Sequence record: PV577657
Reading direction: 5' to 3' (one strand)
Length of the DNA stretch: 64,000 nucleotides
From: Escherichia phage vB_EcoS_MM-1
The notes below the pieces were generated by a model, which saw nothing but the letters and a program-made list of their open reading frames with translations, was not told the origin of the DNA and did not search any database. The translations under genes were made by a program, and so were the position numbers. Shown here piece by piece: positions 1-29,233 of the stretch (the first letter of the stretch is position 1; each line of letters opens with the position of its first letter).

Positions 1-123
1 GTCCAGTGGGTCGGGGGAGAATACTTAGTCTGCTAACCGCCACCCCCCGTTACTATTATCATGGTAATTGTTTCACCCTGCAATTAAAATGGTTGCAGGG
101 TGAAACAATTTCAACTTTAATTA

Positions 124-858
124 TTACGCAACTTTTAATTTCTCGATATATTGTTGCGGGCTGCAACTATATTCTGCGCGTTCTTCCTCGGTCATACCTT
201 CCCAACATAATTTCAAACGATCAGCTAGGAATTGATAATCATTATCATCATCGAGGGATTCATCAATAAAGGTTTCACCTATCAATGCCACGCCGATTGA
301 TAGAATATCGTTAACGGCTTGCGCGTCCAGCGTTTTAAATCCGTATGATGCCGCCGCTGATAGTACACCCTTATGATCATCAATCATTGTAAAATCAGCG
401 TTCGGATATAACTGTTTAAATAATTCAAAATAATAAGATTTATAAACTGCGTCTTTGCTGTGGTATATCTCGCTAACTTTATCAGCCTCAAAATATTTAT
501 GCAGTGTATCGCGAGAAAACACGCGGATATTACTATCACCACGACCGCGCAAGCCTTGTTTGCGCAAATAATAATAGTCCGACTTGCTCATTAGTCGAGC
601 GGTACAAATAATGTTTAAAGTATTTGCGTCATTCATGCACTGGCGCATATATGTAACAAGGGGCAATAAAGTATCTTGCATTATTAAATCATGTTTGCAG
701 GCTTCATTTTTATACTTATTTAAATCTAAATTGCCCTCGCTATCAAAGCAAGGCGCTACACGATGGAAAGAATTAATGATAGTGCCGTCCAGATCCCAAA
801 TCATGACGCGGGAAATATGCGGGAAATTACGGGTAATATTCATTTTAACTTGATTCAT
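124..858 (-). CDS. dmp: HAD-superfamily 5'-deoxyribonucleotidase-like (dmp-like)
   Basis: HAD motif I 'MIWDLDGTI' near N-terminus; start moved to ATG after GGAGAA RBS (244 aa); position at left end matches T5 dmp. Confidence 0.6.
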   Translation of the reverse strand: MNQVKMNITRNFPHISRVMIWDLDGTIINSFHRVAPCFDSEGNLDLNKYKNEACKHDLIMQDTLLPLVTYMRQCMNDANTLNIICTARLMSKSDYYYLRKQGLRGRGDSNIRVFSRDTLHKYFEADKVSEIYHSKDAVYKSYYFELFKQLYPNADFTMIDDHKGVLSAAASYGFKTLDAQAVNDILSIGVALIGETFIDESLDDDNDYQFLADRLKLCWEGMTEEERAEYSCSPQQYIEKLKVA

Positions 859-938
859 TTTGTTACGTTCTCCATTAAAGGGATTTAGTTTATCCAGCAT
901 TACCCGCTATTTATAAGCGGGTAATAATAAATCAACTA

Positions 939-1331
939 TTAAAGACCATAAGCCAACGCATCAGCGATAAAACTAACATCCTCACCGGATACGCTAGAAC
1001 GAATCCCCGCGCAGGTGTATACCTTTGCGCTCGCTAGCTGATCATCAAGGCAAGCGGGGCAAGGCGCGACAACTGCAAAGGCTAGACCAGATTTTACCGC
1101 GTCAATAATGATTGTTTCTTGTTTCATCGTGTCAACATAAACGCCTTTTGCTTTAATATGGCTGGTTAGTTTGCCTTGCGTATAGGCAAAGGTAGTAACC
1201 TGTAAAGCGTCATTGAAATCTAATAATTCATCAATAACGTGCCCCGCCTCGACGTGGTAACGTTCACCATTAGAATAAACCAGAACAATGGAAGACTGAG
1301 CGCGATCGAATGGAATATTTTGCTTTTTCAT
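939..1331 (-). CDS. hypothetical pre-early protein with HxE and PCxxC motifs
   Basis: 130-aa ORF; 'HVEAGH' and 'PCPAC' are reminiscent of zinc deaminase ligands but spacing is atypical. Confidence 0.45.
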   Translation of the reverse strand: MKKQNIPFDRAQSSIVLVYSNGERYHVEAGHVIDELLDFNDALQVTTFAYTQGKLTSHIKAKGVYVDTMKQETIIIDAVKSGLAFAVVAPCPACLDDQLASAKVYTCAGIRSSVSGEDVSFIADALAYGL

Positions 1332-1370
1332 ACTTATAAAACTCCAATTAGTTTAATATAGGGATTTAAT

Positions 1371-1661
1371 TTATTTGATAATAATCTGCATCTGGTACGG
1401 CGTTAATTCACCGTTTACGGGTAAATTATTATCGCTTAGCCACTCATAAAAAGCGCCATCATCATCAAAAGGAACAACATCATTATCACGATAATCGATG
1501 GAAATAATGCCATCCGTATTAGTTTTGGCGGCTAGGATAGGCCCAAAGCTGTAAACTTTATCGGATTCCATTTCATCCGGTGAGATGAATGCTTTTTCGT
1601 CCAATGTTTTGGGTAATGTAACTTTCATTTTTTGACTCCTGTAATAGCGGCTATATTTCAA
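1371..1661 (-). CDS. hypothetical protein
   Basis: 96-aa ORF packed between neighbours on same strand. Confidence 0.45.
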   Translation of the reverse strand: MKYSRYYRSQKMKVTLPKTLDEKAFISPDEMESDKVYSFGPILAAKTNTDGIISIDYRDNDVVPFDDDGAFYEWLSDNNLPVNGELTPYQMQIIIK

Positions 1662-1681
1662 GCCGCTAGGGGATAATTTAA

Positions 1682-3346
1682 TTACGCGAAAAATTTACCG
1701 TTTTTAAAGTCAATCAAAGTGCGCTGACCGTTTGCATAGGTAATTAAATGCGTTTGCGTCCAGCTTGACGCGCCAACGTTGTAACCCATATCCAGACTAC
1801 CAGCTACGCCAGCGGTATAAACGCCACCGTAAATGCTAGCGGTATGGGTGTGTCCCGTGTTTAGCTTGCCCAATTTCTTAAACTGTTTAGGATTGCCACG
1901 ACTGCCGTTAATGCCGTTGTGACCGTGTACGCCGCACTCAATGCCTGCAATCTTGAAAGATTGATCAGTGGTTAGGAAAATGGCGTTAAACTCACAACCT
2001 GCAACCTTGCGCAGCGCATAATCTAGCACGTTAAAAGTATCATCATGATCACTGATCGCCGCGTAAATTGCAGCATTCAGGCGGTGATATAGTTCGGCGT
2101 TGGCTGGATCGTCTTTGATGTTAGCATTACGATCATCTAACCAGCGGGATAGCGCCAAATCGTGATTAGATTCAACAATGATTGTTTGAGAGAAATCACG
2201 TTCCATTGATTCCAGCACGCGCCCCGTATCGATAAGATCATCCAGAACTTTATCACGTCCAGCGGCATACTGTTTTGCTAGGAATACACCGGATGCACGG
2301 TTATGATGATTGCGCGATGTAAAATCATGCACGTCATGGATAAACTGATATTTTGGTTTAAGAATATCAAGCAAGCTATTTTCGCCAGCCCATGACGCAA
2401 CGGCACAATCATCATCTAATTTTTCCGCATGAATATCGCCATACTGCAAGCCTAAAACATGCCCCGATGTTTCATAGCATCCGGCAGGAGTAGCGCAAAC
2501 ATTCAGATCATAAAACACCCCGCTTTCGTCCATTGTTTCAAGCTGGCGAACAAAAAATTCCCCGTCCTCGTCGAACTCAACAATCAGCGCGCCGAAGTTA
2601 TGCAGAGCTTCCGCTTTTTGTCCTGCTTTCTGCTGAATATAGTTTTTAAGCGTTGCCGTTCCGGTTGAATACATACGGCGCACTACTTCACCTTTTAAAG
2701 CTGGCACGCTTTCAGCGGTGATTTTAGCGTGACCAATTGCCAGCCCCTCAATATTGAGCGCCGTTGCAGTTTCTGCAAATCCTGAAAGCGGGTAATCTGC
2801 GGTTGGCAAAACATTAATTTCAGCCATGAAAGCAAAACGGCGGTTATTTAAAAACACGTTTTTGCTGCAAATATATTTATCAAATGCGGGATCGTATTTG
2901 ATACCGTCTGCACCTTCTTCATTCTGGAAGCCATTTTTATTATAAATATACTTAGAAACAAGCAAATCAGCACCGATATATTCAGCGAATTTTTCCAGAC
3001 TTGCTAAAAAGTTTTTATGCGGGAAAGTATTATTTTGAATCGACGTAATAATAAAGCGTTTACCCTGTTTTACTTCCCATTGCTCAACCGTACTAGAAAC
3101 AATTCCCGCCGCTTCTGGGCGCTCATCGTTTTTAATGGCTTTTGCTACTTTTGCCGCTTTCGGTTTAGCTGGTTTATTTGCTTCCAGCCAGTCGCAGATA
3201 GCGGTTGAATGCTTCGTTGTATCGTAGACCGCTTTTGATATATCGTCGCAGACTTCCAGTTTAGTAGCGCGCAGACGTTTACCATAGAAATTAAAGTCAG
3301 CGGCCATTTTCAGGATAACGGTTTGTTTTTCTGCGGAAATAATCAT
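1682..3346 (-). CDS. A1: A1-like pre-early protein, calcineurin-like metallophosphoesterase/nuclease fold
   Basis: 554 aa; motifs GDIH, SNHD, GHTH in phosphoesterase order; size and position match T5 A1. Confidence 0.6.
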   Translation of the reverse strand: MIISAEKQTVILKMAADFNFYGKRLRATKLEVCDDISKAVYDTTKHSTAICDWLEANKPAKPKAAKVAKAIKNDERPEAAGIVSSTVEQWEVKQGKRFIITSIQNNTFPHKNFLASLEKFAEYIGADLLVSKYIYNKNGFQNEEGADGIKYDPAFDKYICSKNVFLNNRRFAFMAEINVLPTADYPLSGFAETATALNIEGLAIGHAKITAESVPALKGEVVRRMYSTGTATLKNYIQQKAGQKAEALHNFGALIVEFDEDGEFFVRQLETMDESGVFYDLNVCATPAGCYETSGHVLGLQYGDIHAEKLDDDCAVASWAGENSLLDILKPKYQFIHDVHDFTSRNHHNRASGVFLAKQYAAGRDKVLDDLIDTGRVLESMERDFSQTIIVESNHDLALSRWLDDRNANIKDDPANAELYHRLNAAIYAAISDHDDTFNVLDYALRKVAGCEFNAIFLTTDQSFKIAGIECGVHGHNGINGSRGNPKQFKKLGKLNTGHTHTASIYGGVYTAGVAGSLDMGYNVGASSWTQTHLITYANGQRTLIDFKNGKFFA

Positions 3347-3436
3347 AGTAATAAAACTCCATTAAAGGGATTAGATTAATAACGGCAATATTGCCAAATA
3401 TAACGCCTCAAATAATAGGCGTTATAATTTGCAACA

Positions 3437-3634
3437 TTAATTTAAAGGCACTAGGCTAGAACTAACACCACAAGCAACGGCAGCGATAAAACAAAGCAAG
3501 CCCAAACGTTTTGCTAATTTAGATTTACGTTTAAAATAATATGAATCTAAATCATTTTGAAAATAAGCGAACAATAACGAGGGCGCCATAATAAACAAGC
3601 CTAGAATTAATGATTCAGTAGGATAAAAGATCAT
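3437..3634 (-). CDS. small membrane protein
   Basis: 65 aa with two hydrophobic segments. Confidence 0.4.
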   Translation of the reverse strand: MIFYPTESLILGLFIMAPSLLFAYFQNDLDSYYFKRKSKLAKRLGLLCFIAAVACGVSSSLVPLN

Positions 3635-3728
3635 TTTAAAAACTCCTGATTTAAGGGAAGAAAATAACTATCGCTAAACAGTTATATTATTGCCCCCTCA
3701 CTAAAAAAAGGGGGGCAAGGTATAACTA

Positions 3729-4136
3729 TTATTCGCCTGCGGCTTGTTTTACTTCCTCGGCAACGCCTAACAATTGCGCTACTGCGTCCAGCGTTTCAAG
3801 TTTTGCACTTTCAAGGCTTGCCAGATCATCGGCATCTTTGATAATGCCGGAATCGATAGCGTGTTTTGCAATAACGCGTACATAATGAGCTTTGCGGATT
3901 GAACTACCGCCGCCAACTTTGCGGGGCTTACCGCTTTTTTGATATGCTTTTGCGCTGGTCAATTTTGACCGAACGGATACGGGAGAAGCCGCGCCTACTG
4001 CTTTTGCAATCTCTTTCAGGCCGTCGCTATTTGCGAAATCTAAACCGTTTTCATTAATTAACTGTTGATACATGGAAACAGCTTTCTGAGTGTTTTCTTC
4101 ATTCCATGCGAATTTTGCGGTTTTAGCGTTAGTCAT
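3729..4136 (-). CDS. A2: A2-like pre-early protein
   Basis: 135 aa, immediately downstream of A1-like gene; assignment by size and synteny only. Confidence 0.4.
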   Translation of the reverse strand: MTNAKTAKFAWNEENTQKAVSMYQQLINENGLDFANSDGLKEIAKAVGAASPVSVRSKLTSAKAYQKSGKPRKVGGGSSIRKAHYVRVIAKHAIDSGIIKDADDLASLESAKLETLDAVAQLLGVAEEVKQAAGE

Positions 4137-4232
4137 GATGTAACTCCTATTAGTTTAATTTAAGGGATTAGATTAACTTAATGTTAATCGTTATATCCCC
4201 CTGAAATAAGGGGATATAAAGTTAACACTAAT

Positions 4233-4484
4233 TTACAATACAGCTTCCCATTTTTCGTTGCGTTGAACAACCTTTACAACATCGCCGGATTTAACGCGAA
4301 CGCTAAAAACGGGCTTGCCGTTGTTACTACGTTCATTTTCAGCGTATACCGCGTCGATTGTATCGAACGGCATAAGCGCCGCACCTTTAATACGTTCGGC
4401 CTTTCCGGTTAATTCATCCGTTTTAGTAACGAAAGGAATGAAGACGAATTGACCAACTTTCGGCGCGGTAATAACGTTTTGCAT
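4233..4484 (-). CDS. hypothetical protein
   Basis: 83-aa ORF. Confidence 0.45.
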   Translation of the reverse strand: MQNVITAPKVGQFVFIPFVTKTDELTGKAERIKGAALMPFDTIDAVYAENERSNNGKPVFSVRVKSGDVVKVVQRNEKWEAVL

Positions 4485-4519
4485 AATATAAACTCCTAGT
4501 TATTTGGGGATTGTTCCGC

Positions 4520-4549
4520 ATTACCTGCTAGAAAGTAACAGCAGGTAAT
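4520..4549. other. 10-bp stem hairpin (attacctgct / agcaggtaat)
   Basis: perfect inverted repeat with 10-nt loop; no flanking U-run on either strand. Confidence 0.5.
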
Positions 4550-4714
4550 AAGTAACAATCCGCTCGCCAATATAATCAATTTTAAAGAACTCCACGTAGG
4601 CCGCTATATCCCGTTAGGGGGCGGGATGCATTATGGTAAGCACCGACCGTCAAATTTTATCAAGTTATCGCTCTTATCGAACTGGGTACATCTTAAAACC
4701 TATCGGCTAGGTTG

Positions 4715-4918
4715 TCAAACAATTTTTTGCAATTTTTTATGATTTTCTTTTAGGTCAATCATAATATTTCGCCAGATCATTTCCAGACCTTGCTGGCGAC
4801 CTTTCTTGTACTGCGTGAATCTATATCTTACTGATCTTTGAGCTACTGTCAACAAATTTTTTGTTTTGCTATCTAGTGCCTTAATAGGCTTGCCAGTGAT
4901 CAAAAGCGTTTGTTTCAT
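4715..4918 (-). CDS. small basic protein
   Basis: 67 aa, Lys/Arg-rich; AAGGAA RBS upstream of ATG. Confidence 0.4.
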   Translation of the reverse strand: MKQTLLITGKPIKALDSKTKNLLTVAQRSVRYRFTQYKKGRQQGLEMIWRNIMIDLKENHKKLQKIV

Positions 4919-5365
4919 ATCGTCGATTCCTTATAATGAATAAGTTTACCGCCGATAGGCTTTAAGATGTACCCAATTTTTAAAGAGCGTGGCGGTAAAC
5001 TTCCCGCCGTGTAGTTCGTCATTGCCGCCCTACGAGATAAATAATAGGGGATTCCCGAAAATGGCGCAACCTTATTTTTGTAAAGAAATGTAAAGGTAAA
5101 ACTCACCGGACACCGTGCGGCGACGGCCTAAAATTAAAAGAAACGGGCGCGCGAATACCACAAAATAAAGCAAATAGGCAAGTAATTTTTTCATTTATAT
5201 TTGCTTTGCCCTACTTGACAAAATCTAAAAAGCTCGTGGTAACGATAAACGGCTTATCCCCTTATGATGGGATGGCTAAAAACTTTATTGCGTTCTGGAG
5301 CGTTTTAGGCGCATTCTAGCCTTGTTGATAACTTATCCCCAAAAGCAAAAATGAAATTTTCCTAG

Positions 5366-5398
5366 TTATCCACTTGACTTTTATTTTCCAGTGGATAA
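5366..5398. promoter_or_regulatory. inverted pair of DnaA-box-like 9-mers
   Basis: TTATCCACT and its reverse complement AGTGGATAA separated by 15 bp (consensus TTATCCACA). Confidence 0.5.
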
Positions 5399-5662
5399 CT
5401 ACTTATTTTATGAAATAAATTAATTGACTTTTATTTGTTAGTATGCATCGGAAAGATAGCAGACTAATAATTGCTAGAATGATAATCATGCTGGTGGATT
5501 GTAACGACCTGAATTATTAGCAGACTATTAATCACGGAAAAATCTCATTAGCCAACTAACTATTTCATGATATATAATATACATATAAATTAATGAGAAA
5601 TAATAACTATAAGAAATCATCTAGCTAAGTGAGAACCACTATCATTTAAGTTATACACAAAG

Positions 5663-5671
5663 TTATCCACA
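5663..5671. promoter_or_regulatory. DnaA box, perfect consensus
   Basis: TTATCCACA. Confidence 0.5.
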
Positions 5672-6025
5672 GCACTTTTTGACTTGACACGATAGGCGGC
5701 GATATAAGGACTTTTACACAGACTTATCTACAGGTTATTCCACTGTATAAATATACAGGGTAAAAAGGTAGTGTTAACAACTGCAATCAATTTTAAGCGG
5801 CTTAAATCGCATTCTAACGAGCTAAACGCTGCGGGGTAATATTAAAGTAAAGCCTTAATGCGTCGCCCTGGTGGCTTCGCCGTGGTTTGCTCTTTATTGC
5901 ACCGCTGCGCGGTTAGCATAAAAATAGGCGCTAGGCAAGGAAAATAAAAAGGTAAAATAATATTTGCCTATGCTAGAAATTTACCTTTATCATTCACTCA
6001 CCGATTAACGAGGGAGGCCGAACAA

Positions 6026-6805
6026 ATGAGGCTTTATAAACCTGATAATGCCACCGTTTTAAAAGGTGCATTGCGCAACCTGCTGGATGGTAGCAAGTCA
6101 ACCAGCATTAAACATTTTATTAACAAGATTGAAACTATTCATCAAAACTTTTTTGATGATTATGACGCTTATGATATGGATAGTTTTCTACCCTTATATA
6201 GACAAGGGGCAACGCTAGTTTTATATAATCGGGATTGCCATATCTTTACAGGCAGGGGAGCGGGGCCGGATACCGATTTTATTGTTGCGCAGGGTAATAA
6301 TATTGTTGCGTATCATAGCAATTCAGGCCGTCAATCATTTAATATAAATAGTTTTGAGCTTATTGGACTTGATCTGATAAATGGACTTTCTAGCATTGAG
6401 GGATTTTTAGATGTTATCTGGAAGTATTTACCCGCTGGATGGCATAAGCCGGATAACGACGGATCTCAATATACCGGTATAATGGCTTTTGATGGCGACG
6501 GTAATTTTTTGTTACCACGGGAGCTATACCCATATATTTATGATGGGGATATAGAAAGCGCTGGTTTTTCTTTCTGGAAAGATGAAGATCAGATTATTGA
6601 CAGCGTAGAAAACCATGCTGTAAATTCTAACACTCAAAGCGTTAACACTCAAACTACTGAAAACAAAGGAAAAAACACTATGACCAAGATTGCTAACATC
6701 GTTGCCGCTAATAAATCCGCCGTTGTAAATGCTGCAAAACTGGAAGCGGGTAAAATTGCACTGACTCAAATCACGAAAGTAGCGGCTAAAAAGCACCGTT
6801 CATGA
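6026..6805 (+). CDS. hypothetical protein
   Basis: 259 aa; GAGGGAGG RBS 8 nt upstream. Confidence 0.6.
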   Translation: MRLYKPDNATVLKGALRNLLDGSKSTSIKHFINKIETIHQNFFDDYDAYDMDSFLPLYRQGATLVLYNRDCHIFTGRGAGPDTDFIVAQGNNIVAYHSNSGRQSFNINSFELIGLDLINGLSSIEGFLDVIWKYLPAGWHKPDNDGSQYTGIMAFDGDGNFLLPRELYPYIYDGDIESAGFSFWKDEDQIIDSVENHAVNSNTQSVNTQTTENKGKNTMTKIANIVAANKSAVVNAAKLEAGKIALTQITKVAAKKHRS

Positions 6806-7035
6806 TTAAAGGCTATATTGATACGCCGATTGGTCGAGTAGTGATTGCTAACCTGCTAAGTGTAGCGGTTGACCAGTACGCACCGACTAACCAGAAAGCG
6901 AAAGCGGTAGCAGGGGCGGCTATGGAAGCGGCAATGCTGGAAATGGTGCAAAGTTTTAACATCGCTGAAATGATTGATGAAATGGTGAAAGGTATTGATA
7001 TTTCTACTTTTACCACTAGCACCGAAATCGAGTAA
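6802..7035 (+). CDS. hypothetical protein
   Basis: 77 aa; ATGA start/stop overlap with upstream gene. Confidence 0.45.
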   Translation: MIKGYIDTPIGRVVIANLLSVAVDQYAPTNQKAKAVAGAAMEAAMLEMVQSFNIAEMIDEMVKGIDISTFTTSTEIE

Positions 7036-7100
7036 TAATATTTAGTGGGGATTATTTCCCCACTTTACTACTCCCTTGTTAATTAATAGGAGGCTAACTA

Positions 7101-7595
7101 ATGGCTGAGGAAAAATACGGCTTCTCGCTAGGAGAAGTGAGCACGGCTAAACATGATATGATCATTTTAGTCGATTGTCATACTGGCTATTGCGGAGAAG
7201 GGAACACCGAAGAATACTTTGTTCCTGCTGGTACGGATCTGGACGCTTTCGCTCATGAAATGGCTATTGATAATGCTTCTCGTTTTGGTAGCGATGGCTA
7301 TGAAGACGAAGAAACTGGCGAATGGTATGAAAATGAAAACGTATATGCAAGCCTTTATCATTATCAGCTAAGTAAATCCGGCACATATGTAAACGGCGGC
7401 GATCCTATTAATTCCGTCATGAAATTAATTATTAAATATGGTGGCGTCGAGATAATTGATAACAAAGCGGTAATATACGCAAACCGATTAAAACAGCTTG
7501 TTTATATTCCTGATAGTACCCGATGGGATGAATACGCTGTTTTGCATGACGAATTGAAACGATGTTTCAATATTGAATCCCTGCAAGTAGTCTAA
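7101..7595 (+). CDS. hypothetical acidic protein
   Basis: 164 aa; AGGAGG RBS. Confidence 0.6.
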   Translation: MAEEKYGFSLGEVSTAKHDMIILVDCHTGYCGEGNTEEYFVPAGTDLDAFAHEMAIDNASRFGSDGYEDEETGEWYENENVYASLYHYQLSKSGTYVNGGDPINSVMKLIIKYGGVEIIDNKAVIYANRLKQLVYIPDSTRWDEYAVLHDELKRCFNIESLQVV

Positions 7596-7608
7596 TGTAA
7601 AGTTTTGT

Positions 7609-7638
7609 AAAGGTCGCCTTTTATGGTGGCCTTTTTTG
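7609..7638 (+). terminator. rho-independent terminator
   Basis: 9-bp stem (two G-U pairs) followed by TTTTTTGTT. Confidence 0.55.
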
Positions 7639-7700
7639 TTATAATGCTTTTACACCAAAACGGTGGATTGAAAATTTTCCCAAAAATTTGGAGGCTTAAA

Positions 7701-7931
7701 ATGGTTGCTTATTCTTCTGCTAGTCATCTGTTTACCGCGCAAGGCTGGGTATCTAATCGTGCTGTCATCTATGAAATGGTGCAGGAGTTCGGCATTGCTA
7801 AAACTTATAATACCATTCAGGAACTATATAACGCCGATAAAATCGATCAGCAAACGGCTGGCTTTTTACTGGATACCCTGAAAGCTGAACATTGCACTAA
7901 AAAACAAGCCGCTAAAATTGTTTTAATGTAA
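7701..7931 (+). CDS. hypothetical protein
   Basis: start moved from track 7623 to ATG after GGAGG RBS, because the 7623 extension runs through the upstream terminator. Confidence 0.5.
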   Translation: MVAYSSASHLFTAQGWVSNRAVIYEMVQEFGIAKTYNTIQELYNADKIDQQTAGFLLDTLKAEHCTKKQAAKIVLM

Positions 7932-7980
7932 TTAATAACGGGGCGTTACTTTCGCCCCGATAACTAGGAGGCTATCACAA

Positions 7981-8130
7981 ATGGTTATTTTTCGATCTAT
8001 TTTAGCGGGTATCTTGGGCGCTATTTTATCGTTATTTGCGATAGCTTTCGGCGTTCACGCTGTTATTATTGGCGCTGGCATTGCTGCGTTTTCTTATCTG
8101 CTGGGCTGCATGACTAGTAAAGGAGAATAA
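7981..8130 (+). CDS. small hydrophobic membrane protein
   Basis: 49 aa, below ORF-track cutoff; AGGAGG RBS; Gly/Ala-rich TM segment. Confidence 0.4.
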   Translation: MVIFRSILAGILGAILSLFAIAFGVHAVIIGAGIAAFSYLLGCMTSKGE

Positions 8131-8132
8131 AA

Positions 8133-8345
8133 ATGATCCGCAACGTTTCCCTTGCACGTTCGAAAGGCTTTAAGCTGGTGGATGTTAACACGTTCGAGTG
8201 GGAAGATTGTAAAATCGAATATGTAGCACGTAACAAAAATGCCTTTCGTGTTACCGAGAAAAAATTTGATAAGCGCGGCAACGTGATAGCTGAAACAGTT
8301 AAACATTTTGCCACCTTTTACGCTGCTTTCCGTGGGGTATTATGA
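8133..8345 (+). CDS. hypothetical protein
   Basis: 70 aa; AAGGAGAA RBS. Confidence 0.5.
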   Translation: MIRNVSLARSKGFKLVDVNTFEWEDCKIEYVARNKNAFRVTEKKFDKRGNVIAETVKHFATFYAAFRGVL

Positions 8346-8460
8346 TTCAGCAAATTAAAACGGCTTTTCGTTTTTGGGGCGTCCTGCCTTCAATTGGTTT
8401 TATTCTGATAATTATTAGTCAGCTAATGATCATCGGCGGAACTATTTGGGAGCTATGCAA

Positions 8461-8805
8461 ATGATAATTTATGAAGGCAATCGCTTTGTTGCTAATTGCC
8501 GTCCGGCATTATTAGCAAACTATTTAAACCAGCTTTCCCCAGCTTATAAGGGCGTTATTAATATTTATGAGGGAAAGGCGCATTATAAAATTAATGCGGT
8601 CGTTGCCCGTGAACTAGCATTTCAATTTTTGACCTTTGCATCTTGTGACGTTCAGGTTATGGGTGAGGCATTAATCGCGGAAAATGAAGAGGATTTTATT
8701 AATATTTTCCGTAAGGTATGCACTGAGCGCTTGATAATGAAAGGCGCGTATATTCAATCAACTGCGGAAAGTATTGAAACAGCATTTCGAAAGGTGGCGC
8801 AATGA
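8461..8805 (+). CDS. hypothetical protein
   Basis: ORF track 8446..8805; ATG at 8461 gives ATGA coupling with upstream small ORF. Confidence 0.5.
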   Translation: MIIYEGNRFVANCRPALLANYLNQLSPAYKGVINIYEGKAHYKINAVVARELAFQFLTFASCDVQVMGEALIAENEEDFINIFRKVCTERLIMKGAYIQSTAESIETAFRKVAQ

Positions 8806-9028
8806 GATTATATATTTTCGTTGGTAATGTTAAGGCAGCTAATGATTCCGCTGGTGGCGACAACGTTCGCCACCATTGGCAAAAATATATTTACTAGGAG
8901 TTATTATGTCTGGTTTAATGTTTACCTTATTAGTAGTTTATAGCATAATTACGGCAGGAATAGTAACTTATGTTACTAGTAAAATTTGGCCGGGAATATA
9001 TGGTAATTTTTAATAACGGAGCGTTATT

Positions 9029-9232
9029 ATGAGCAATAAAATTATTGTAACCAAAATCAGTACAATGGTTGATGTTTTTTACGTGCCAGATACGCCGGAG
9101 AATCGGCAAGCGGTCGAGCGGGGCGAATATGATAAAGTGATTTATGATCACGATGGTTATTATCAGTATTTGGTGGATTCCTACGGGGAGGAGGAGAAGA
9201 TCACGCATCGACTACCGGAGGAGGGTTTATGA
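9029..9232 (+). CDS. hypothetical acidic protein
   Basis: 67 aa; GGAG RBS. Confidence 0.5.
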   Translation: MSNKIIVTKISTMVDVFYVPDTPENRQAVERGEYDKVIYDHDGYYQYLVDSYGEEEKITHRLPEEGL

Positions 9233-9381
9233 AACGATGGTTTAATCACTGGTACAAGCGGTTTTTAGTACGCCGTCGCAAGTCTAGGCATCAAGATGAG
9301 TGGCGGGAGTGGGCAAAGCGTAACGGTTGCCCGCTACTATAATAATCACGGGGCGCAACTATCGGGAAGTGCCCCCAATTC

Positions 9382-9406
9382 TCAAATGAGAATCATTCTC
9401 ATTTGA
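9382..9406. repeat. 25-bp perfect palindrome
   Basis: tcaaatgagaat-c-attctcatttga, 12-1-12. Confidence 0.9.
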
Positions 9407-9626
9407 CCGCGCCCGCGATGGTTAGCCTGCTAATGATTAGGGTGTTACGTGTCGCCTTGTGTGATCGTTAGCGAGCTAACTAATTTTCAAGCCTCCTCCA
9501 ATTTTGCCCTTGTTTTAGTATCTCCACCAAAATTAAACGCGTTAGAATGCGATCTAGGACGTTTTAACGCTATATTAGAATTATTCACTGCGTAGGAATA
9601 CTGTATATTTATACAGTAGGATAAGC

Positions 9627-9708
9627 TGTGGATAAGTCTGTTAATAACACCCCAAAATGGCTAGGATTCTGTCAAGTCAAATCGTGCTGTTAATAAGTCT
9701 GTGGATAA
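9627..9708. promoter_or_regulatory. two DnaA boxes in direct orientation
   Basis: TGTGGATAA at 9627-9635 and 9700-9708, each beside a ctgttaataa motif. Confidence 0.5.
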
Positions 9709-9719
9709 CTTAAATAATA

Positions 9720-9910
9720 GTGTTTCTCACTTCCGTTCTTAAATACGAATCACTATCATTTGCGTTCCACTTTCTAAATGAGAATCATTCTGCTTTTTAA
9801 AGGAGAATCGTTTCACTTCCTGAATAATTCTCACTTCCATTCTTAAATGCGAATTATTATCATTCTCATTCCGCTTTTTAAATGAGAATCATTCTCATTA
9901 TCATTCGCAT
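9720..9910. repeat. array of direct and inverted repeats
   Basis: repeated cttccgttcttaaatacgaat and aaatgagaatcattctcatt units; ORF-free. Confidence 0.8.
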
Positions 9911-9941
9911 TCAGGCGAGCAGGGCAATTGCCCTGCGCTTT

Positions 9942-10542
9942 TGTGCAAATCCGACATTGCTCCACGGGTGTTACGTGCGGGCGTGTATGTGCGAATCCGA
10001 CAATTTTTGGTAGTGTGCAAATCCGACCCGAAAAATTTTTATAGTGTGCAAATCCGACAATGAATTTTCCTAAAAACTCCAGCAATCACGAACTGCGTTC
10101 GAATCCTGTGGGGTATGTGCAAATCCGACACGGTTTTTCTAGGATTAAGATGTGCGAATCCGACAAGATTTTTGTGACTTCGATTGGAGGGTGTGTGATT
10201 GTGTGAGTTTGGGGAGAAGTTGAGAGAGCGAGAAAAATTTGAGGGAACTGCGGGAGGGGCGCATGTTTGGTGCGGAGCACCTGATTTGCGGGGATTTTGG
10301 GGAAGAGTTGAGAAGATTTGGGTTAATTTGAGATTAGTGCAGAAAAAGTAAAATTTTATTAGCTAAATGGAGCAAAATAGCTTGACAAGTGAAAATTCTT
10401 GTGGCTCTAAAAACTCAGGCAATCATGGGCCTTCGGCCCGAAATAATGCTGCCATTTTCAGGAGATTATGTGTCCATGAAAACTTAGGCAATTGTGCAAA
10501 TCCGACCAGTTTTTAAACTTATGTCAGTGTGCAAATCCGACA
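9942..10542 (+). repeat. eight direct copies of 15-mer TGTGC(A/G)AATCCGAC(A/C)
   Basis: copies at 9942, 9988, 10014, 10045, 10116, 10151, 10493, 10528; same orientation, irregular spacing, each followed by a T-run. Confidence 0.9.
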
Positions 10543-10564
10543 GTAATTTCTGGAAATGTGTTTT

Positions 10565-10640
10565 GGAAAAATGCCCTCTAGAAATAACCGCCCTCCCAAT
10601 AACCGCCCTGTATTAAACCGCCTAGTATATGTTCCTAGAA
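10565..10640. repeat. AACCGCCCT and CTAGAAA short direct repeats
   Basis: four AACCGCC(C)T copies within 75 bp. Confidence 0.7.
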
Positions 10641-10986
10641 ACTTAAGAGAACCGCCCTAGAAAGAGGGAGTATTTCGTGAGAACTCTGGAGTTTCTAGGA
10701 AAGTGTTGTGCCATCCTAGCAGAAGAGCGGCAACCGGTGTATCATCTTGAACACAAATATTGCCTTTAAATATTTTTAGTTATTTAAAAGTAAATATACC
10801 CCCATTTCATGTGAGATTCCTCGTGGGGCGCGTGAGTATTACGGAAGAACTCTAATATTGGCCCGCGCTAAGACTAGCCGCTATAGCACAGACGCAAATA
10901 GAGTTGTAATAATCATCGCCCCTAGAGTTCACAATAAGAGTTATTGTTAATCTATGAGATTATTATAACATACATTTTTAATAACG

Positions 10987-11742
10987 TCAAGAAGATTTTA
11001 CTAATGTTTTTGGATTCTTCTTGGCTTTGAGATATATCCCTTTAGATGCTAGATAGATATATGTTGCTAGAAATGAAGATTCTGATCCCGATTCCTCATA
11101 GGTTAACGTACCTCTAGGGTATTTATTTGTTTTAGGAGCATAGTTAAGCACAGCCGCAGTTAATGACCCTAATCCTAGAACATCTGCAAGACGTCTAAAG
11201 GTATTCTCTTCATCATGGATAGCATAAAGAATGTTATCTTCAATATCCGTTAATGGAATTTTACGGGTATGAGATACTGCAATCCGTGCTATCATAGCTC
11301 CAATTGTTTTATTAATATCCTCGAAAGAAACACTCTCCATATATTTTAGAGGGGGAAGATGGTCATATTTACATTTCTTAGGTGGAATAAGAAGTTGTTC
11401 AGGATAAGCCTCTAGTGCCTGACGAACGTTTGCTTCTGGATATGTTGGTAAAGGTTCATCTATAATAACATGTAAGAAATTAGCTCTGTGCCCCTTAGCA
11501 GTTGGATCTAAAGACTTCAATATTTTGTTCATATCCACGTATGAATACGCTAGATCTGCTTGAGGAGCATTAATATCAAACTTAATCTTCTTACCTTCCC
11601 ATTTAGCAGGGAACATCTCACAAACAAACATTACTGCATGTTTAACATCTGGCTCTAGCTCTGATAGACATTTGTGATCTGCTGTTACTGCTAAAGCGAG
11701 TATATTCTTAAATTTATTAGCTTCTTCAATCATATATCCCAT
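10987..11742 (-). CDS. hypothetical protein, AT-rich island
   Basis: 251-aa ORF. Confidence 0.55.
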   Translation of the reverse strand: MGYMIEEANKFKNILALAVTADHKCLSELEPDVKHAVMFVCEMFPAKWEGKKIKFDINAPQADLAYSYVDMNKILKSLDPTAKGHRANFLHVIIDEPLPTYPEANVRQALEAYPEQLLIPPKKCKYDHLPPLKYMESVSFEDINKTIGAMIARIAVSHTRKIPLTDIEDNILYAIHDEENTFRRLADVLGLGSLTAAVLNYAPKTNKYPRGTLTYEESGSESSFLATYIYLASKGIYLKAKKNPKTLVKSS

Positions 11743-12071
11743 GCCTGCTGACTATTATCACTAACTTGTGTCTTTTTCTTTCTTTGTGGTTTAAAAGCTC
11801 CTTTAGTATTGCTTCTATTAGGCTCTAATTTATACCACAGCATTCCTAGCTGGTTAACCATATGAGCAACATTTCTAGGAGTCAATGGTGGTAGAAATTC
11901 GCAGTTTGATATTTCCACTAATATATTAAGTAACTCTGTCTCTTTAGCTTTACTGTTTACTACCACCACGTATTCTAATGTTTCTACCTCGGAATCCTCG
12001 TCTTTATAGTAGAGGCTAAGAGTAATTAAATTGTCACCAGCAGGAGTTATTTTTGTTTTACCAAATATCAT
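11730..12071 (-). CDS. hypothetical protein
   Basis: 113 aa. Confidence 0.5.
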   Translation of the reverse strand: MIFGKTKITPAGDNLITLSLYYKDEDSEVETLEYVVVVNSKAKETELLNILVEISNCEFLPPLTPRNVAHMVNQLGMLWYKLEPNRSNTKGAFKPQRKKKTQVSDNSQQAWDI

Positions 12072-12670
12072 TAATTACCTCTCTTATCTTCATTAATAGC
12101 AGCTCCCAACGCCTCCATAATAGCATCCTCTAAACTTCCATGTTTACCAGGATTATTAAAATGAATAGTACAAACAGAACTCCTAGAAACTCCAGCATCC
12201 GCAGGTGCTACGCTTCGCATATCAGATTCAAAAGCTTCTTGAGTATGTTTCAACTGCACAGAAGGGCCGTAATCTTCACCAACTCGATAAGATTGATTAG
12301 ACGACAGCGTACCACCGCATGGAACATTGTGCAAATCCGATGATTTATTTAACAGTGCAATACCGCCTTTTGACCACGGGTCACTAACAGTGGTACTGGG
12401 ACGATTTACCTCAGTCTTCACAAGTTTGTACTCTGCATCGATTAATGCGTTAATTAGATTATCAGCTGGGATGCGAGCCTTACCAAAAATCTTACGAGCG
12501 TCTTCAAGCTTACCTTCAAAATCTTTACACGCTCTAAGGTCGGTGTGTGCAAATGTTAGTTTCATAGACTTGAACTGTACAGTAGCAGTTAAATCTTTAA
12601 AGCTATAATCCCACGTATTCAATTCATGGTCTGGTACTACTTGAATAGATTGTTGCGCATTAAAAGTCAT
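12071..12670 (-). CDS. hypothetical protein
   Basis: 199 aa; contains a 13-nt partial copy of the 15-mer repeat at 12329-12341. Confidence 0.55.
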   Translation of the reverse strand: MTFNAQQSIQVVPDHELNTWDYSFKDLTATVQFKSMKLTFAHTDLRACKDFEGKLEDARKIFGKARIPADNLINALIDAEYKLVKTEVNRPSTTVSDPWSKGGIALLNKSSDLHNVPCGGTLSSNQSYRVGEDYGPSVQLKHTQEAFESDMRSVAPADAGVSRSSVCTIHFNNPGKHGSLEDAIMEALGAAINEDKRGN

Positions 12671-17331: not shown

Positions 17332-17955
17332 TTAGACATTTATATCACCACGCAATACGGCAGCTACATCTTCCCCTATTTGTAATACTTCACCAGTAGT
17401 GCAGTTGACCACTCTATCATAGCTAGTAAACTTACCTGATACAATATCTTCTAGAGGAATAGGAGTTTTGCTCATCTCAAATGAGACATTGATGTAACGA
17501 GGGTCACGTAGAGAAGTAGTATGTACGTGTCCGTGAATATTTAACTTGCCCCGAAGTTCATTGGGGTGCAAAGGACAATGAGATAGCCAAAACTTTTTGC
17601 CACCACCAGTCTGTTTACCTAGAGCCTGAATATCATCGTAAACTTCTACTAAATCTTTAATACAGAGTCCTTGACGTTCCGCATCGTGGTTGCCCATAAT
17701 AAGTTGATTAGGAACATTGTGGATAACCGACTTTAGCTTGGCCAAGCCTTCACGACCTACTGCAATGTCTCCTAACAAGATGAGTTTAGTACGCTTGCCA
17801 ATGTGCTTGGAGAGAGTATCCAGAATGTACTCGTCATGTTCTTTCATATTCTTAAACCACGGACGGAAACGTAATGCCCCAGGATGATCTAAGTGCAAAT
17901 CCGACCAAAATTTAACTTTCATTATTCTTTCCTTTATTCCGAATAATATTATCAA
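17332..17955 (-). CDS. calcineurin-like metallophosphoesterase
   Basis: motifs SDLHLD, GDIAVGR, GNHD, GHVH; likely true start at internal MKVKF; contains a 14-nt partial copy of the 15-mer repeat. Confidence 0.6.
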   Translation of the reverse strand: MIILFGIKERIMKVKFWSDLHLDHPGALRFRPWFKNMKEHDEYILDTLSKHIGKRTKLILLGDIAVGREGLAKLKSVIHNVPNQLIMGNHDAERQGLCIKDLVEVYDDIQALGKQTGGGKKFWLSHCPLHPNELRGKLNIHGHVHTTSLRDPRYINVSFEMSKTPIPLEDIVSGKFTSYDRVVNCTTGEVLQIGEDVAAVLRGDINV

Positions 17956-20617: not shown

Positions 20618-20694
20618 GGCTTTCTCCTATCTTCAAAAATTATTAAAGCCCCCTTTGCCTAAAAAGGCGGGAATATTCCCGCCTAAGTTATTAA

Positions 20695-27689: not shown

Positions 27690-27776
27690 TGGTGCTGGGC
27701 ACAGGATTCGAACCTGTAACGGGATTACTCCTCCTGATTACAAATCAGGTGCATTCAACCATTCTGCCAACCCAGC
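27690..27776 (-). tRNA. tRNA, type II (long variable arm), anticodon loop UUUGUAA (anticodon UGU)
   Basis: 7-bp acceptor GCTGGGT/GCCCAGC, Ser-like D-loop GGTTGAA, T-loop TTCGAAT, encoded CCA; anticodon and body type do not match a standard isotype. Confidence 0.5.
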
Positions 27777-27784
27777 AGAACCCG

Positions 27785-27949
27785 TTATTTCAACGGGATT
27801 TCTTTTTCAATAACAGGAGACTTATCAGTCATAACCGCCATTGCCATTTGTTGTAGAAATTCAAAGGTGAAGGCTACACGTTCTTCACCAATCTCTACTT
27901 CTACACGTTTCTTTTGTTTATCGATCTTGACTTTTAGGTTATCAGCCAT
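27785..27949 (-). CDS. small hypothetical protein
   Basis: 54-aa ORF below track cutoff. Confidence 0.3.
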   Translation of the reverse strand: MADNLKVKIDKQKKRVEVEIGEERVAFTFEFLQQMAMAVMTDKSPVIEKEIPLK

Positions 27950-28193
27950 TAGAGAGTACAGTACTGGTAGTTGGCAATACTACAGATGAAGCAACAGTGT
28001 TTAAATGCTTTCCCCAGTCTAGGTTAAATTGTTTTCGAAACTCTTCATAAGGTTCTTCTGGATAAAAGCTAAAACCTCCTTTCTCATCATTCAGGATAAC
28101 AGAGCCGTCAGTTTGTTCGTATGCTCGGTATGTTTCTCCAATAACAATAACTCGTTTTTCGGTACTTTTATTACGAAACTCAAAAACGTGCAT
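27942..28193 (-). CDS. hypothetical protein
   Basis: 83 aa. Confidence 0.4.
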   Translation of the reverse strand: MHVFEFRNKSTEKRVIVIGETYRAYEQTDGSVILNDEKGGFSFYPEEPYEEFRKQFNLDWGKHLNTVASSVVLPTTSTVLSNG

Positions 28194-28209
28194 AATGTTT
28201 CCTTAAAGT

Positions 28210-28285
28210 TGGAGCGGCTAGAGGGAATCGAACCCTACTCAGCGAGGCTTGGAAGGCCTGCGGCACAACCCGTGTGCTTAACCGC
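28210..28285 (-). tRNA. tRNA-Gly (UCC)
   Basis: acceptor GCGGTTA/TAGCCGC, anticodon loop CUUCCAA, T-loop TTCGATT, discriminator U, CCA encoded. Confidence 0.65.
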
Positions 28286-28293
28286 TTATTGTT

Positions 28294-28369
28294 TGGCTGG
28301 AGAAGGAGGAATCGAACCTACCATTAACGGAGTCAAAGGCCGTTGTGCTAACCGTTACACTACTCTCCA
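28294..28369 (-). tRNA. tRNA-Gln (UUG)
   Basis: U1-A72 acceptor, anticodon loop CUUUGAC, discriminator G. Confidence 0.65.
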
Positions 28370-28375
28370 ATTATT

Positions 28376-28451
28376 TGGCTGGGATGCCACGGATCGAACG
28401 TGGAACCTTCGGAGTCAGAGGCCGACGATCTGCCAATTGATCTACATCCCA
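28376..28451 (-). tRNA. tRNA-Gln (CUG)
   Basis: U1-A72, anticodon loop CUCUGAC, same architecture as the neighbouring Gln. Confidence 0.65.
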
Positions 28452-28463
28452 ATAATTTTTATT

Positions 28464-28658
28464 CTACGGAAAAATTGTTGTTGGCTCAGATTCTTCCAAA
28501 CGTTTGCCTTCATGATCAACACGAATAACGCCGCATCCTTCGCAAATCACAACTGCACCATAACCTTCTTTGACCTCAGCTTCTGTAATCAAACCAGAAA
28601 GATCACCAGTATCTTTACCCCACATATCAATGGAGCATTGTTTGCAGAAATCAGCCAT
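28464..28658 (-). CDS. small Cys-containing protein
   Basis: 64 aa with CxxC pairs. Confidence 0.35.
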   Translation of the reverse strand: MADFCKQCSIDMWGKDTGDLSGLITEAEVKEGYGAVVICEGCGVIRVDHEGKRLEESEPTTIFP

Positions 28659-28683
28659 ATTTTATTTCCTATTTAAGTTAATT

Positions 28684-28760
28684 TGGGGTGGCTAGTGAAA
28701 TTCGAATCCACATAGGCCTGATTCACAATCAGGATCATTAACCAATTATGATATAGCCAC
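28684..28760 (-). tRNA. tRNA-His (GUG)
   Basis: 5' GTGGCTA, anticodon loop UUGUGAA, 3' end AGCCACCCCA. Confidence 0.7.
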
Positions 28761-29126: not shown

Positions 29127-29221
29127 TGGAGGTAGGTAAGGGGATCGAACCCTTACACCGTATCACTACGATCAACCGATTTCAAGTCGGAGTCCAGCGC
29201 CAGCCATTGGATTGACCTACC
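29127..29221 (-). tRNA. tRNA-Ser (UGA)
   Basis: 95 nt, long variable arm with 6-bp stem, anticodon loop CUUGAAA. Confidence 0.55.
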
Positions 29222-29233
29222 ATATAAATTGTT

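What the first reader, a model, noticed from the sequence alone, without database searches (positions are those of the whole stretch)
9360..9910. Dense palindrome and repeat field including a 25-bp perfect palindrome
A 12-1-12 perfect palindrome (9382-9406) and many repeated and inverted GAGAATCATTCTC-type units fill about 550 bp without ORFs, flanked by DnaA-box 9-mers at 9627 and 9700. The architecture resembles an operator or DNA-transfer control locus rather than a promoter.
Basis: partly seen in the sequence, partly recalled or inferred. Interest (0 to 1): 0.5.

Follow-up and report, generated by a model that had tools for sequence, protein, structure and literature searches.

The report
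T5-type injection-stop region, already described
This palindrome-rich, gene-free stretch is the known "injection stop signal" region at the end of the left terminal repeat of a T5-like phage, where DNA entry pauses; its most conserved core looks like a binding site for the host SOS repressor LexA placed next to DnaA boxes, which I did not find noted in the literature I could search.

Summary
The 12-1-12 palindrome (9382-9406) is perfect and is the longest in the 64 kb. Its unit recurs only in this field (9 matches against 0.08 expected). Two consensus DnaA boxes lie at 9627 and 9700.

The window is a Tequintavirus genome read from its left end.

Details added here:
- The 25-bp palindrome lies in 116 bp that T5 lacks. 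178 phage records keep it, and a Vibrio phage keeps 28/30 bases, so T5 lost it.
- The units form a family-wide 21-bp dyad, AAATG(A/C)GAAT(C/G)ATTCTCATT. Half-sites vary independently, which fits a protein site rather than a hairpin.
- "palD" (9599-9618) matches the LexA SOS-box consensus at 19/20. It lies near consensus DnaA boxes in all 13 Demerecviridae lineages checked and is mirrored at 5743-5758.
- The field ends in a terminator hairpin, T5's major nick site, an iteron array, and the repeat end at 10407.

The mechanism of the pause remains unproven.

The parts
9354..9469 (.). 116-bp segment absent from T5. T5 has a rho-independent terminator here instead. It contains the 25-bp palindrome.
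   Evidence: Alignment gap in T5. The segment is present full-length at 92-100% identity in 178 phage records.
9382..9406 (.). Perfect 12-1-12 palindrome: the upstream copy of the family-wide 21-bp dyad unit.
   Evidence: Window 9383-9412 is 28/30 identical to Vibrio phage VspSw_1 at the same relative position. In 15 anchor-selected relatives the arms are nearly invariant and the centre base flips between C and G.
9599..9618 (.). 'palD' TACTGTATATTTATACAGTA: an SOS-box (LexA operator)-like dyad.
   Evidence: 19/20 to TACTGTATATATATACAGTA. It is the only match at up to 3 mismatches in 64 kb, and no shuffle gives one. It is conserved in all 13 lineages checked. It scores 27.0 of a possible 28.1 bits on a PWM built from SOS boxes recalled from memory.
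9627..9647 (-). First DnaA-box pair: consensus TTATCCACA (9627-9635), 3 bp, TTATTAACA (9639-9647), read on the minus strand.
   Evidence: The pairing and 3-bp spacing are as Davison describes.
9688..9708 (-). Second DnaA-box pair, a mirror of the first: TTATTAACA (9688-9696), 3 bp, TTATCCACA (9700-9708).
   Evidence: (D8).
9601..9732 (.). Right arm (IRD'-spacer-IRC') of a 132-nt inverted repeat. Its partner is at 5627-5758.
   Evidence: I1 (77% complementary, arms 3842 nt apart).
5627..5760 (.). Left mirror module between the divergent pre-early operons: two DnaA-box pairs (5650-5673, 5712-5733) and an SOS-like core CTGTATAAATATACAG (5743-5758).
   Evidence: The same layout occurs in T5 at 6121-6228.
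9724..9895 (+). Two 68-nt direct repeats (9724-9791 and 9828-9895, 87% identical; DRE1/DRE2 of the T5 nomenclature). They carry dyad units centred at 9786, 9855/9861 and 9890.
   Evidence: (D1, D3), and the nomenclature.
9878..9902 (.). Second best dyad unit (AATGAGAATCATTCTCATT, 9-1-9 perfect). The overlapping 19-mer 9884-9902 matches the Fur box at 16/19.
9919..9936 (+). GC-rich hairpin GCAGGGCAATTGCCCTGC followed by GCTTTTG. It is terminator-like for the rightward pre-early operon.
   Evidence: It is identical in T5.
9938..9939 (-). Position homologous to T5's annotated major single-chain interruption (nick).
   Evidence: T5 feature 9748/9749, mapped through the alignment.
9942..10164 (+). 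Six direct repeats of TGTGCRAATCCGAC (DRD iterons). Two more lie at 10493-10541, beyond the repeat end.
   Evidence: 10 matches against 0.00 expected. Copy number differs in the 99%-identical phage MM-2, which lacks 9999-10105.
10407..10408 (.). Right end of the left terminal repeat, by homology.
   Evidence: The T5 end (10219) and the MM-2 end (10299) both map here.

Best explanation
The field is the left two-thirds of the non-coding "injection stop signal" region (Repeat Region 3 of T5). It lies at the right end of the left terminal repeat of a T5-like phage, and it is the last DNA to reach the cell during first-step transfer.

It most likely works as double-stranded DNA, as a platform on which proteins assemble:
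- A universally conserved core combines an SOS-box-like dyad with two mirror pairs of DnaA boxes. A mirror copy lies 3.8 kb to the left.
- The field closes with the terminator of the rightward pre-early operon, the virion nick site, and an iteron array that spans the repeat end.

Inferred mechanism: host proteins occupy the core as it emerges at the inner membrane and hold the DNA there. DnaA is the published proposal; by sequence, LexA is a further candidate. The essential pre-early protein A2, a dimeric helix-turn-helix protein, is the best candidate reader of the dyad units. A2 and A1 together then release the block so that second-step transfer proceeds.

Shown: the identity of the locus, its anatomy and its conservation. 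Inferred: which proteins bind, and that binding causes the pause.
For: Identity:
- The genome is T5-like and the window starts at the genome's left end.
- The field aligns to T5's annotated iss.
- Two independent annotations place the repeat end at 10407.
- All the named T5 elements are present: IRD'-spacer-IRC' with paired DnaA boxes, the distant inverted partner, the DRE repeats and the DRD repeats.

Selection:
- Window 9450-10649 is 84-95% identical to T5, while the coding DNA at 6900-7499 and 10800-11999 is only 45-62% identical.
- The order palD, then DnaA pairs, then dyad units, then iterons recurs in Tequintavirus, Epseptimavirus, Sugarlandvirus, Erwinia phage KEY and a Pectobacterium phage. 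A Vibrio phage keeps the same order but its iterons have drifted in sequence.
- The SOS-like box lies close to consensus DnaA boxes also in Vibrio phages Skimmer and D254 and in Proteus phage M4H10_20.

A protein site rather than a hairpin:
- Unit half-sites do not co-vary. Complementary pairs at +/-4 are 37 observed against 41.0 expected under independence; at +/-5 they are 26 against 28.0.
- Only the centre base is free to change.

A2 as candidate reader:
- It is annotated as a DNA-binding protein required for transfer and is reported to be an essential dimeric DNA binder.
- Its putative recognition helix SVRSKL is almost invariant across the family.
- The E. coli core genome has no copy of the dyad.
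Against: - No experiment shows that this DNA stops transfer. Recent papers still call the mechanism unknown, and Davison reports that complete ejection occurs in vitro with FhuA proteoliposomes.
- Proteins bound to DNA already inside the cell do not obviously stop the DNA behind it.
- The viable T5 mutant deleted from hegG to 017 probably lacks the left mirror module, so that module is not essential. I did not verify the deletion boundaries.
- T5 itself lacks the upstream 25-bp palindrome, so that copy is dispensable for two-step transfer.
- Dyad units are sparse in Skimmer and the Proteus phage although both encode A2.
- All 16 positions of the SOS-like core are conserved, including the spacer that LexA reads only weakly. 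That could equally indicate a phage protein as the binder.
Confidence: 0.6

Rival explanations
1. The field is mainly a transcription-control region. The dyads and the SOS-like box are operators that shut off or terminate pre-early transcription and insulate the repeat end from early genes. The pause in DNA entry is set elsewhere, for example by the virion or the envelope.
For: - The field lies directly after the last rightward pre-early ORF (9229-9342) and before a terminator-like hairpin. T5 has a second terminator in place of the palindrome segment.
- The left module lies between the divergent pre-early operons.
- The left module's SOS-like core overlaps the -10 of a promoter-like TTAACA-16-TATATT.
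- Pre-early expression is known to be shut off in an A1-dependent way.
Against: - No promoter-like site of at least 9/12 overlaps the right-hand SOS-like box, and promoter-like sites in the field are weak (9/12).
- The candidate promoter at the left module is not conserved in T5.
- A dense array of five or more operators downstream of the last gene is not a usual repression layout.
Confidence: 0.2
2. The field acts through DNA secondary structure. Cruciforms or hairpins formed by the palindromes, or a long-range fold-back with the 5.6-kb partner, physically jam the DNA in the tail or channel.
For: - The strand is far more self-complementary than shuffles (z = -5.75).
- It holds the longest perfect palindrome of the window and a 132-nt distant inverted repeat.
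- The frequent C/G flip of the palindrome centre could result from hairpin-mediated template switching. This is my inference.
Against: - There is no compensatory change between half-sites. Sequence, not pairing, is conserved.
- Most units are imperfect dyads, with 7-9 of 12 pairs.
- T5 pauses without the best palindrome.
- The left partner is probably dispensable.
- Arms of 9-12 bp are short for stable cruciform extrusion. This rests on general knowledge.
Confidence: 0.1
3. The field serves genome-end processing. It would mark recognition sites for terminase and the nicking enzyme that define the right end of the terminal repeat and the 8% nick, so its link to injection would be coincidental.
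For: - The nick site (9938/9939) and the repeat end (10407) lie just to its right.
- The iterons straddle the repeat end.
Against:
- A mirror copy of its core sits in the middle of the first-step DNA, at 5.6-5.8 kb, far from any end.
Confidence: 0.07
4. The field is a replication origin. DnaA boxes with a neighbouring iteron array resemble iteron-type plasmid origins and oriC.
For: - Four consensus or near-consensus DnaA boxes arranged in pairs, and 6+2 iterons.
- GC content falls to 33% at 9600-9899.
Against: - The literature places T5 origins near the genome centre, and the replication genes are not expressed while only first-step DNA is in the cell.
- Iteron spacing is irregular (46, 26, 31, 71, 35).
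- Copy number differs between near-identical phages.
- No initiator gene lies next to the field.
Confidence: 0.03

Closest known systems
Bacteriophage T5 injection stop signal / Repeat Region 3 (Heusterspreute 1987; Wang 2005; Davison 2020, bioRxiv 10.1101/866236)
   Same: - Same genomic position, between the last pre-early gene and the end of the left terminal repeat.
- 84-95% identity per 150-bp bin from 9450 to 10649.
- Same elements in the same order: palD, IRD'-spacer-IRC' with paired DnaA boxes, DRE1/2, GC hairpin, nick, DRD array.
   Different: - This phage and 177 other records carry a 116-bp segment with a perfect 25-bp palindrome where T5 has a terminator.
- Both outer DnaA boxes are consensus here. 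In T5 only one is: the homologue of the 9627 box reads TGGGGATAA (counts).
LexA (SOS) operators of gamma-proteobacteria, consensus TACTG(TA)5CAGTA (established knowledge)
   Same: - palD matches at 19/20.
- The CTGT...ACAG arms are kept across most lineages. The ATCCAGT variant seen in three phages also occurs in genuine boxes such as uvrB; I recall this from memory.
   Different: - It is not clearly placed over a promoter.
- The whole 16-mer, spacer included, is conserved.
- It is paired with DnaA boxes.
- LexA binding was not tested.
Clustered DnaA boxes as in oriC and DnaA-titrating loci (datA)
   Same: Consensus 9-mers TTATCCACA in closely spaced pairs with fixed spacing (comparison made).
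   Different: No evidence of an unwinding element or of initiation. The boxes are arranged as mirror pairs about 60 bp apart and are duplicated in inverted orientation 3.8 kb away.
Fur-family operators (19-bp GATAATGATAATCATTATC; 7-1-7 TGATAATnATTATCA; established knowledge)
   Same: The units TGAGAATCATTCTCA match 12 of the 14 specified positions of the 7-1-7 motif. The 19-mer 9884-9902 matches at 16/19.
   Different: Family-wide, the units prefer G/C at +/-4, where all Fur-family sites have T/A. The counts are 49 G against 11 T at -4 and 51 C against 11 A at +4, out of 64 units. Copies are related by descent, so the enrichment statistic overstates the case.
Iteron arrays of plasmid or phage origins, and terminase-binding repeats near cos/pac sites
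   Same: Eight direct 14-bp repeats, all in one orientation, next to DnaA boxes and the genome-end boundary.
   Different: Spacing is irregular. The repeat sequence drifts between genera: TGTGAGTGCGGATTCTA in a Vibrio phage.

Membership tests
T5 injection stop signal / Repeat Region 3 | Lies in the large untranslated region at the right end of the left terminal repeat | tested here: met
   The last conserved ORF ends at 9342. The repeat end maps to 10407 from two independent annotations.
T5 injection stop signal / Repeat Region 3 | Sequence homology to T5 9140-10149 | tested here: met
   Pairwise alignment. Identity is 84-95% per 150-bp bin from 9450 to 10649.
T5 injection stop signal / Repeat Region 3 | IRD'-spacer-IRC' with two DnaA-box pairs, the boxes of a pair 3 bp apart | tested here: met
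   Pairs at 9627-9647 and 9688-9708 (D8, 17, 51). The feature is as described.
T5 injection stop signal / Repeat Region 3 | Inverted partner IRC-spacer-IRD several kb to the left | tested here: met
   132-nt inverted repeat, 5627-5758 against 9601-9732, 77% complementary.
T5 injection stop signal / Repeat Region 3 | DRE direct repeats and the DRD repeat array | tested here: met
   68-nt repeats at 87% identity (D3). Eight exact TGTGCRAATCCGAC copies.
T5 injection stop signal / Repeat Region 3 | Cis-acting arrest of DNA transfer at about 8% of the genome | not testable with these tools
   This needs infection experiments. Even for T5 it is inferred from position.
LexA (SOS) operator | CTGT-N8-ACAG dyad with an AT-rich spacer, close to TACTG(TA)5CAGTA | tested here: met
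   19/20 at 9599-9618. The cores at 9601-9616 and 5743-5758 are the only ones in 64 kb: 4 strand-matches against 0.01 expected.
LexA (SOS) operator | Overlaps the promoter it represses | tested here: inconclusive
   The left copy overlaps the -10 of a 10/12 promoter-like site. The right copy has none at 9/12 or better. The candidate is not conserved in T5.
LexA (SOS) operator | Bound by LexA and released on RecA-stimulated cleavage | not testable with these tools
   Needs EMSA, footprinting or ChIP.
Fur box | Close match to the 19-bp consensus or the 7-1-7 motif | tested here: inconclusive
   Best matches are 16/19 and 12 of the 14 specified 7-1-7 positions. Many AT-rich dyad consensus sequences could be compared, so chance resemblance is likely.
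Fur box | TAAT/ATTA core of each half-site (T/A at +/-4) | tested here: not met
   G at -4 in 49 of 64 units and C at +4 in 51 of 64 units across ten lineages.
DnaA-dependent replication origin | Consensus DnaA boxes TTWTNCACA | tested here: met
   Two exact boxes in the field; four in the window against 0.62 expected.
DnaA-dependent replication origin | Origin activity, with an unwinding element and an initiator | not tested
   The literature places T5 origins mid-genome. No initiator gene was found among the neighbouring pre-early proteins.
Known structured RNA (Rfam) | Match to a curated covariance model | tested here: not met
   The only hit is a spurious one of 17.8 bits against a gathering score of 627.

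The most novel reading that the evidence does not exclude
The deepest-conserved element of the Demerecviridae injection-stop locus is a functional, high-affinity LexA operator placed close to DnaA boxes, and in the ten closest lineages fused to them at a fixed 8-bp distance. It is present twice, in mirror orientation, in the first DNA to enter the cell. On this reading T5-like phages deliberately recruit the host SOS repressor, together with DnaA, to the first-step-transfer boundary. The complex would either form part of the hold on the DNA or act as a switch linking the first-step programme to the state of host DNA, which A1 destroys.

I found no mention of LexA, SOS or Fur in the main comparative paper or in the searchable library. 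I could not read the older subscription papers (Heusterspreute 1987; Wang 2005; Davison 2015).

From my own knowledge, unchecked here: T5 grows on recA laboratory strains. LexA cleavage therefore cannot be required for second-step transfer, so any role would be in binding or holding rather than as a cleavage trigger.
Probability: 0.4. Interest if true: 0.65.

Novelty: already known. Interest (0 to 1): 0.35.

Why it matters
Why T5 DNA entry pauses at 8% and how A1 and A2 restart it has been open for more than 50 years.

This field is the known candidate signal, so finding it is not new. The dissection does reduce the "Matryoshka" of repeats to three testable site classes:
- an SOS-box-like dyad,
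- paired DnaA boxes,
- a 21-bp dyad operator.

It also shows which are universal (the first two) and which are lineage-variable or dispensable (the upstream palindrome, the iteron number, and probably the left mirror module). That gives precise targets for binding assays and for the phage genome editing that now exists for T5.

Tried and rejected
- **Chance or low complexity.** Rejected by shuffles for every motif class.
- **Hidden genes.** The mechanical ORFs in the field are not conserved, and T5 RefSeq annotates none.
- **Structured RNA.** No Rfam family matches, and the half-sites show no covariation.
- **Genuine Fur boxes.** Attractive at first, but the family-wide consensus has G/C where Fur sites need T/A. 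The perfect Fur-type box at 233-247 lies inside the dmp coding sequence in a GAT/AAT-rich stretch.
- **[quoted passage not shown]** Abandoned. A2 is only 40-43% identical in Vibrio and Proteus phages, but its putative recognition helix is nearly invariant.
- **The T5-absent segment as a recent insertion or mobile element.** Rejected, because its core is 28/30 identical in a Vibrio phage.
- **A host-chromosome copy of the dyad or of the core module that would name a host binder.** None found: only marginal hits (E = 6) in 6 of 5426 E. coli genomes, and one marginal plasmid hit for the core.
- **Sequence search of A2 against solved structures.** Nothing found.
- **Davison 2015.** The paper could not be retrieved.

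Full report
**What is there.**
- The arms 9382-9393 and 9395-9406 are 100% complementary around one C.
- This is the longest perfect palindrome in the 64-kb window.
- Its 19-nt core AATGAGAATCATTCTCATT has nine strand-matches at up to 3 mismatches, all between 9385 and 9899. Dinucleotide shuffles give 0.08.
- TGTGGATAA, the reverse complement of the DnaA box TTATCCACA, is exact at 9627 and 9700. The window holds four copies against 0.62 expected.
A GC hairpin followed by a T-run lies at 9919-9936.
- Eight exact TGTGCRAATCCGAC direct repeats lie at 9942-10541.

**Whose genome.**
The 1.2 kb around the field matches 452 phage records, all T5-like Demerecviridae.
- It is 99.9% identical to Escherichia phage ECOP18 and 99% identical to vB_EcoS_MM-2, whose left terminal repeat is annotated as 1..10299.
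- The window begins at the genome's left end.
- T5 RefSeq annotates 9140-10149 as "injection stop signal (iss)". It also annotates a major single-chain interruption at 9748/9749 and the end of the left terminal repeat at 10219.
- Through the pairwise alignment, these map to window 9215-10337, 9938/9939 and 10407.
- MM-2's independently annotated repeat end maps to the same base, 10407.

The field is therefore T5's "Repeat Region 3". Davison (bioRxiv 10.1101/866236) describes it as a nested set of palindromes (palC-palJ), IRD'-spacer-IRC' with paired DnaA boxes, two DRE repeats and nine DRD repeats. He proposes it as the cis-acting stop for first-step transfer. Papers from 2026 still call the mechanism unresolved.

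**What differs from T5.**
The 25-bp palindrome lies in 116 bp (9354-9469) that T5 lacks. T5 has a rho-independent terminator there instead.
- The segment is not private to this phage. 178 records carry it full-length at 92-100% identity.
- Window 9383-9412 (AAATGAGAATCATTCTCATTTGACCGCGCC) is 28/30 identical to Vibrio phage VspSw_1 at the same relative position. The element is therefore ancestral, and T5 lost it.
- I selected environmental relatives by a flanking anchor rather than by the palindrome itself. In these, the arms are almost invariant, and the single centre base is C in about half and G in the rest.

**The units are a dyad operator, not a hairpin.**
Sixty-four units from ten lineages give the consensus AAATG(A/C)GAAT(C/G)ATTCTCATT.
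- At the variable positions the two half-sites change independently. Complementary pairs at +/-4 are 37 observed against 41.0 expected under independence. At +/-5 they are 26 against 28.0.
- Sequence is conserved rather than pairing, which points to a dimeric protein reading duplex DNA.
- The strand is nonetheless strongly self-complementary (z = -5.75), so a structural role is not excluded.
- The units resemble Fur-family operators: 12 of the 14 specified positions of the 7-1-7 motif, and 16/19 at 9884-9902.
- Against Fur, the family-wide preference for G/C at +/-4, where Fur sites have T/A, fails a defining feature.
- No copy of the dyad exists in the E. coli core genome.

**The universal core.**
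"palD" at 9599-9618, TACTGTATATTTATACAGTA, matches the LexA SOS-box consensus TACTGTATATATATACAGTA at 19 of 20 positions.
- It is the only match at up to 3 mismatches in 64 kb, and no shuffle produces one.
- On a PWM built from SOS boxes that I recalled from memory, it scores 27.0 bits of a possible 28.1. The recalled genuine boxes, scored leave-one-out, range from 11.0 to 26.1 bits.
- In an alignment of ten lineages, the best-conserved block of the whole locus is this dyad, 8 bp, then the first DnaA-box pair, with no indels.
- In Vibrio phages Skimmer and D254 and Proteus phage M4H10_20, which blastn could not reach, SOS-like dyads again lie close to consensus DnaA boxes: adjacent to 19 bp away in Skimmer and D254, and 9 bp away at one of the two Proteus sites (about 290 bp at the other). 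The geometry there varies.
- The window's 132-nt inverted partner (5627-5758) carries two DnaA pairs and CTGTATAAATATACAG.
- These two are the only SOS-like cores in the window: 4 strand-matches against 0.01 expected.
- T5 has the same left module at 6121-6228, between hegG and gene 011.
- Davison's paper never mentions LexA, SOS or Fur. The searchable library holds no paper linking them to T5. I could not read the older subscription papers.

**Candidate phage reader.**
A2 (window 3729-4136, minus strand) is the annotated DNA-binding protein required, with A1, for second-step transfer.
- A2 is only 40-43% identical in Vibrio and Proteus phages, yet the putative recognition helix SVRSKL is nearly invariant.
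- A2 could therefore read any of the family-wide motifs.
- By contrast, the iterons drift between genera, and their copy number differs between 99%-identical phages.

**Dispensability.**
- A viable T5 mutant, with small plaques, lacks "hegG to 017". By gene order this interval should include the left mirror module. I did not verify the deletion boundaries.
- Nobody has deleted the right-hand field.
- T5's natural loss of the upstream palindrome shows that this copy is not needed for two-step transfer.

**Conservation pattern.**
- Against T5, window 9450-10649 is 84-95% identical per 150-bp bin.
- The coding DNA at 6900-7499 and 10800-11999 is 45-62% identical.
- The non-coding field is thus a conserved island in a mosaic neighbourhood, as Davison also noted.

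**Verdict.**
- The locus is already known and annotated, so its novelty is low.
- The additions are a simpler parts list and the SOS-box reading of palD. That reading is well supported as a sequence fact and by conservation, but it is untested as biology.
- My confidence that this is the T5 iss homologue is about 0.97.
- My confidence that it acts as a protein-assembly platform holding the DNA is about 0.5.
- My confidence that LexA is a functional partner is about 0.4.

Noticed in passing
window 233-247: A perfect match to the Fur 7-1-7 consensus (TGATAATCATTATCA) lies about 230 bp from the genome's left end, and T5 has the identical sequence. It sits inside the 3' part of the dmp coding sequence (124-900, minus strand), in a GAT/AAT-rich stretch, so codon composition may explain it.
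   Followed up: partly
window 6026-6805 and 6802-7035: [quoted passage not shown] This is a frameshift or a genuine split relative to T5.
   Followed up: no
window 9229-9342 (+): A small basic 37-aa ORF overlaps the previous gene's stop (ATGA). Against T5 it shows about 8 synonymous and 5 non-synonymous changes by eye. T5 RefSeq does not annotate it and places it inside the 'iss' feature.
   Followed up: partly
window 10990-10962 (-): The strongest sigma-70-like promoter match in the area (TTGACG-17-TATAAT with an upstream TG, 11/12) points leftward into about 550 bp of non-coding DNA and toward the repeat end. This stretch is poorly conserved with T5.
   Followed up: no
window 9999-10105 and 9631, compared with L001 (phage MM-2): The 99%-identical phage MM-2 lacks 107 bp holding two iteron copies, and it has a 1-bp deletion inside the first consensus DnaA box. 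This is either real variation or a sequencing error.
   Followed up: partly
window 9394 (centre of the palindrome); loci L015-L037: Among close relatives the centre base of the 25-bp palindrome is C in about half and G in the rest, while the arms stay fixed. This equals an inversion of the palindrome and may reflect hairpin-mediated template switching.
   Followed up: partly
window 17718-17726 and 17892-17905; also 12328-12341: A further consensus DnaA box and one-mismatch copies of the TGTGCAAATCCGAC iteron lie outside the terminal repeat. Two of these lie within 180 bp of each other near 17.8 kb.
   Followed up: no
window 20665-20684: A perfect 20-bp GC-rich palindrome, AGGCGGGAATATTCCCGCCT, is the second longest in the window and is probably a terminator stem.
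   Followed up: no
window 27690-37969 (-): A cluster of 19 tRNA genes lies on the minus strand, as expected for a T5-like genome.
   Followed up: no
window 3729-4136 (-), protein A2: The predicted fold of A2 is an N-terminal GcrA/Myb-like three-helix HTH plus a helical C-terminal half. No Pfam family in the local copy and no solved relative by sequence matched it.
   Followed up: partly
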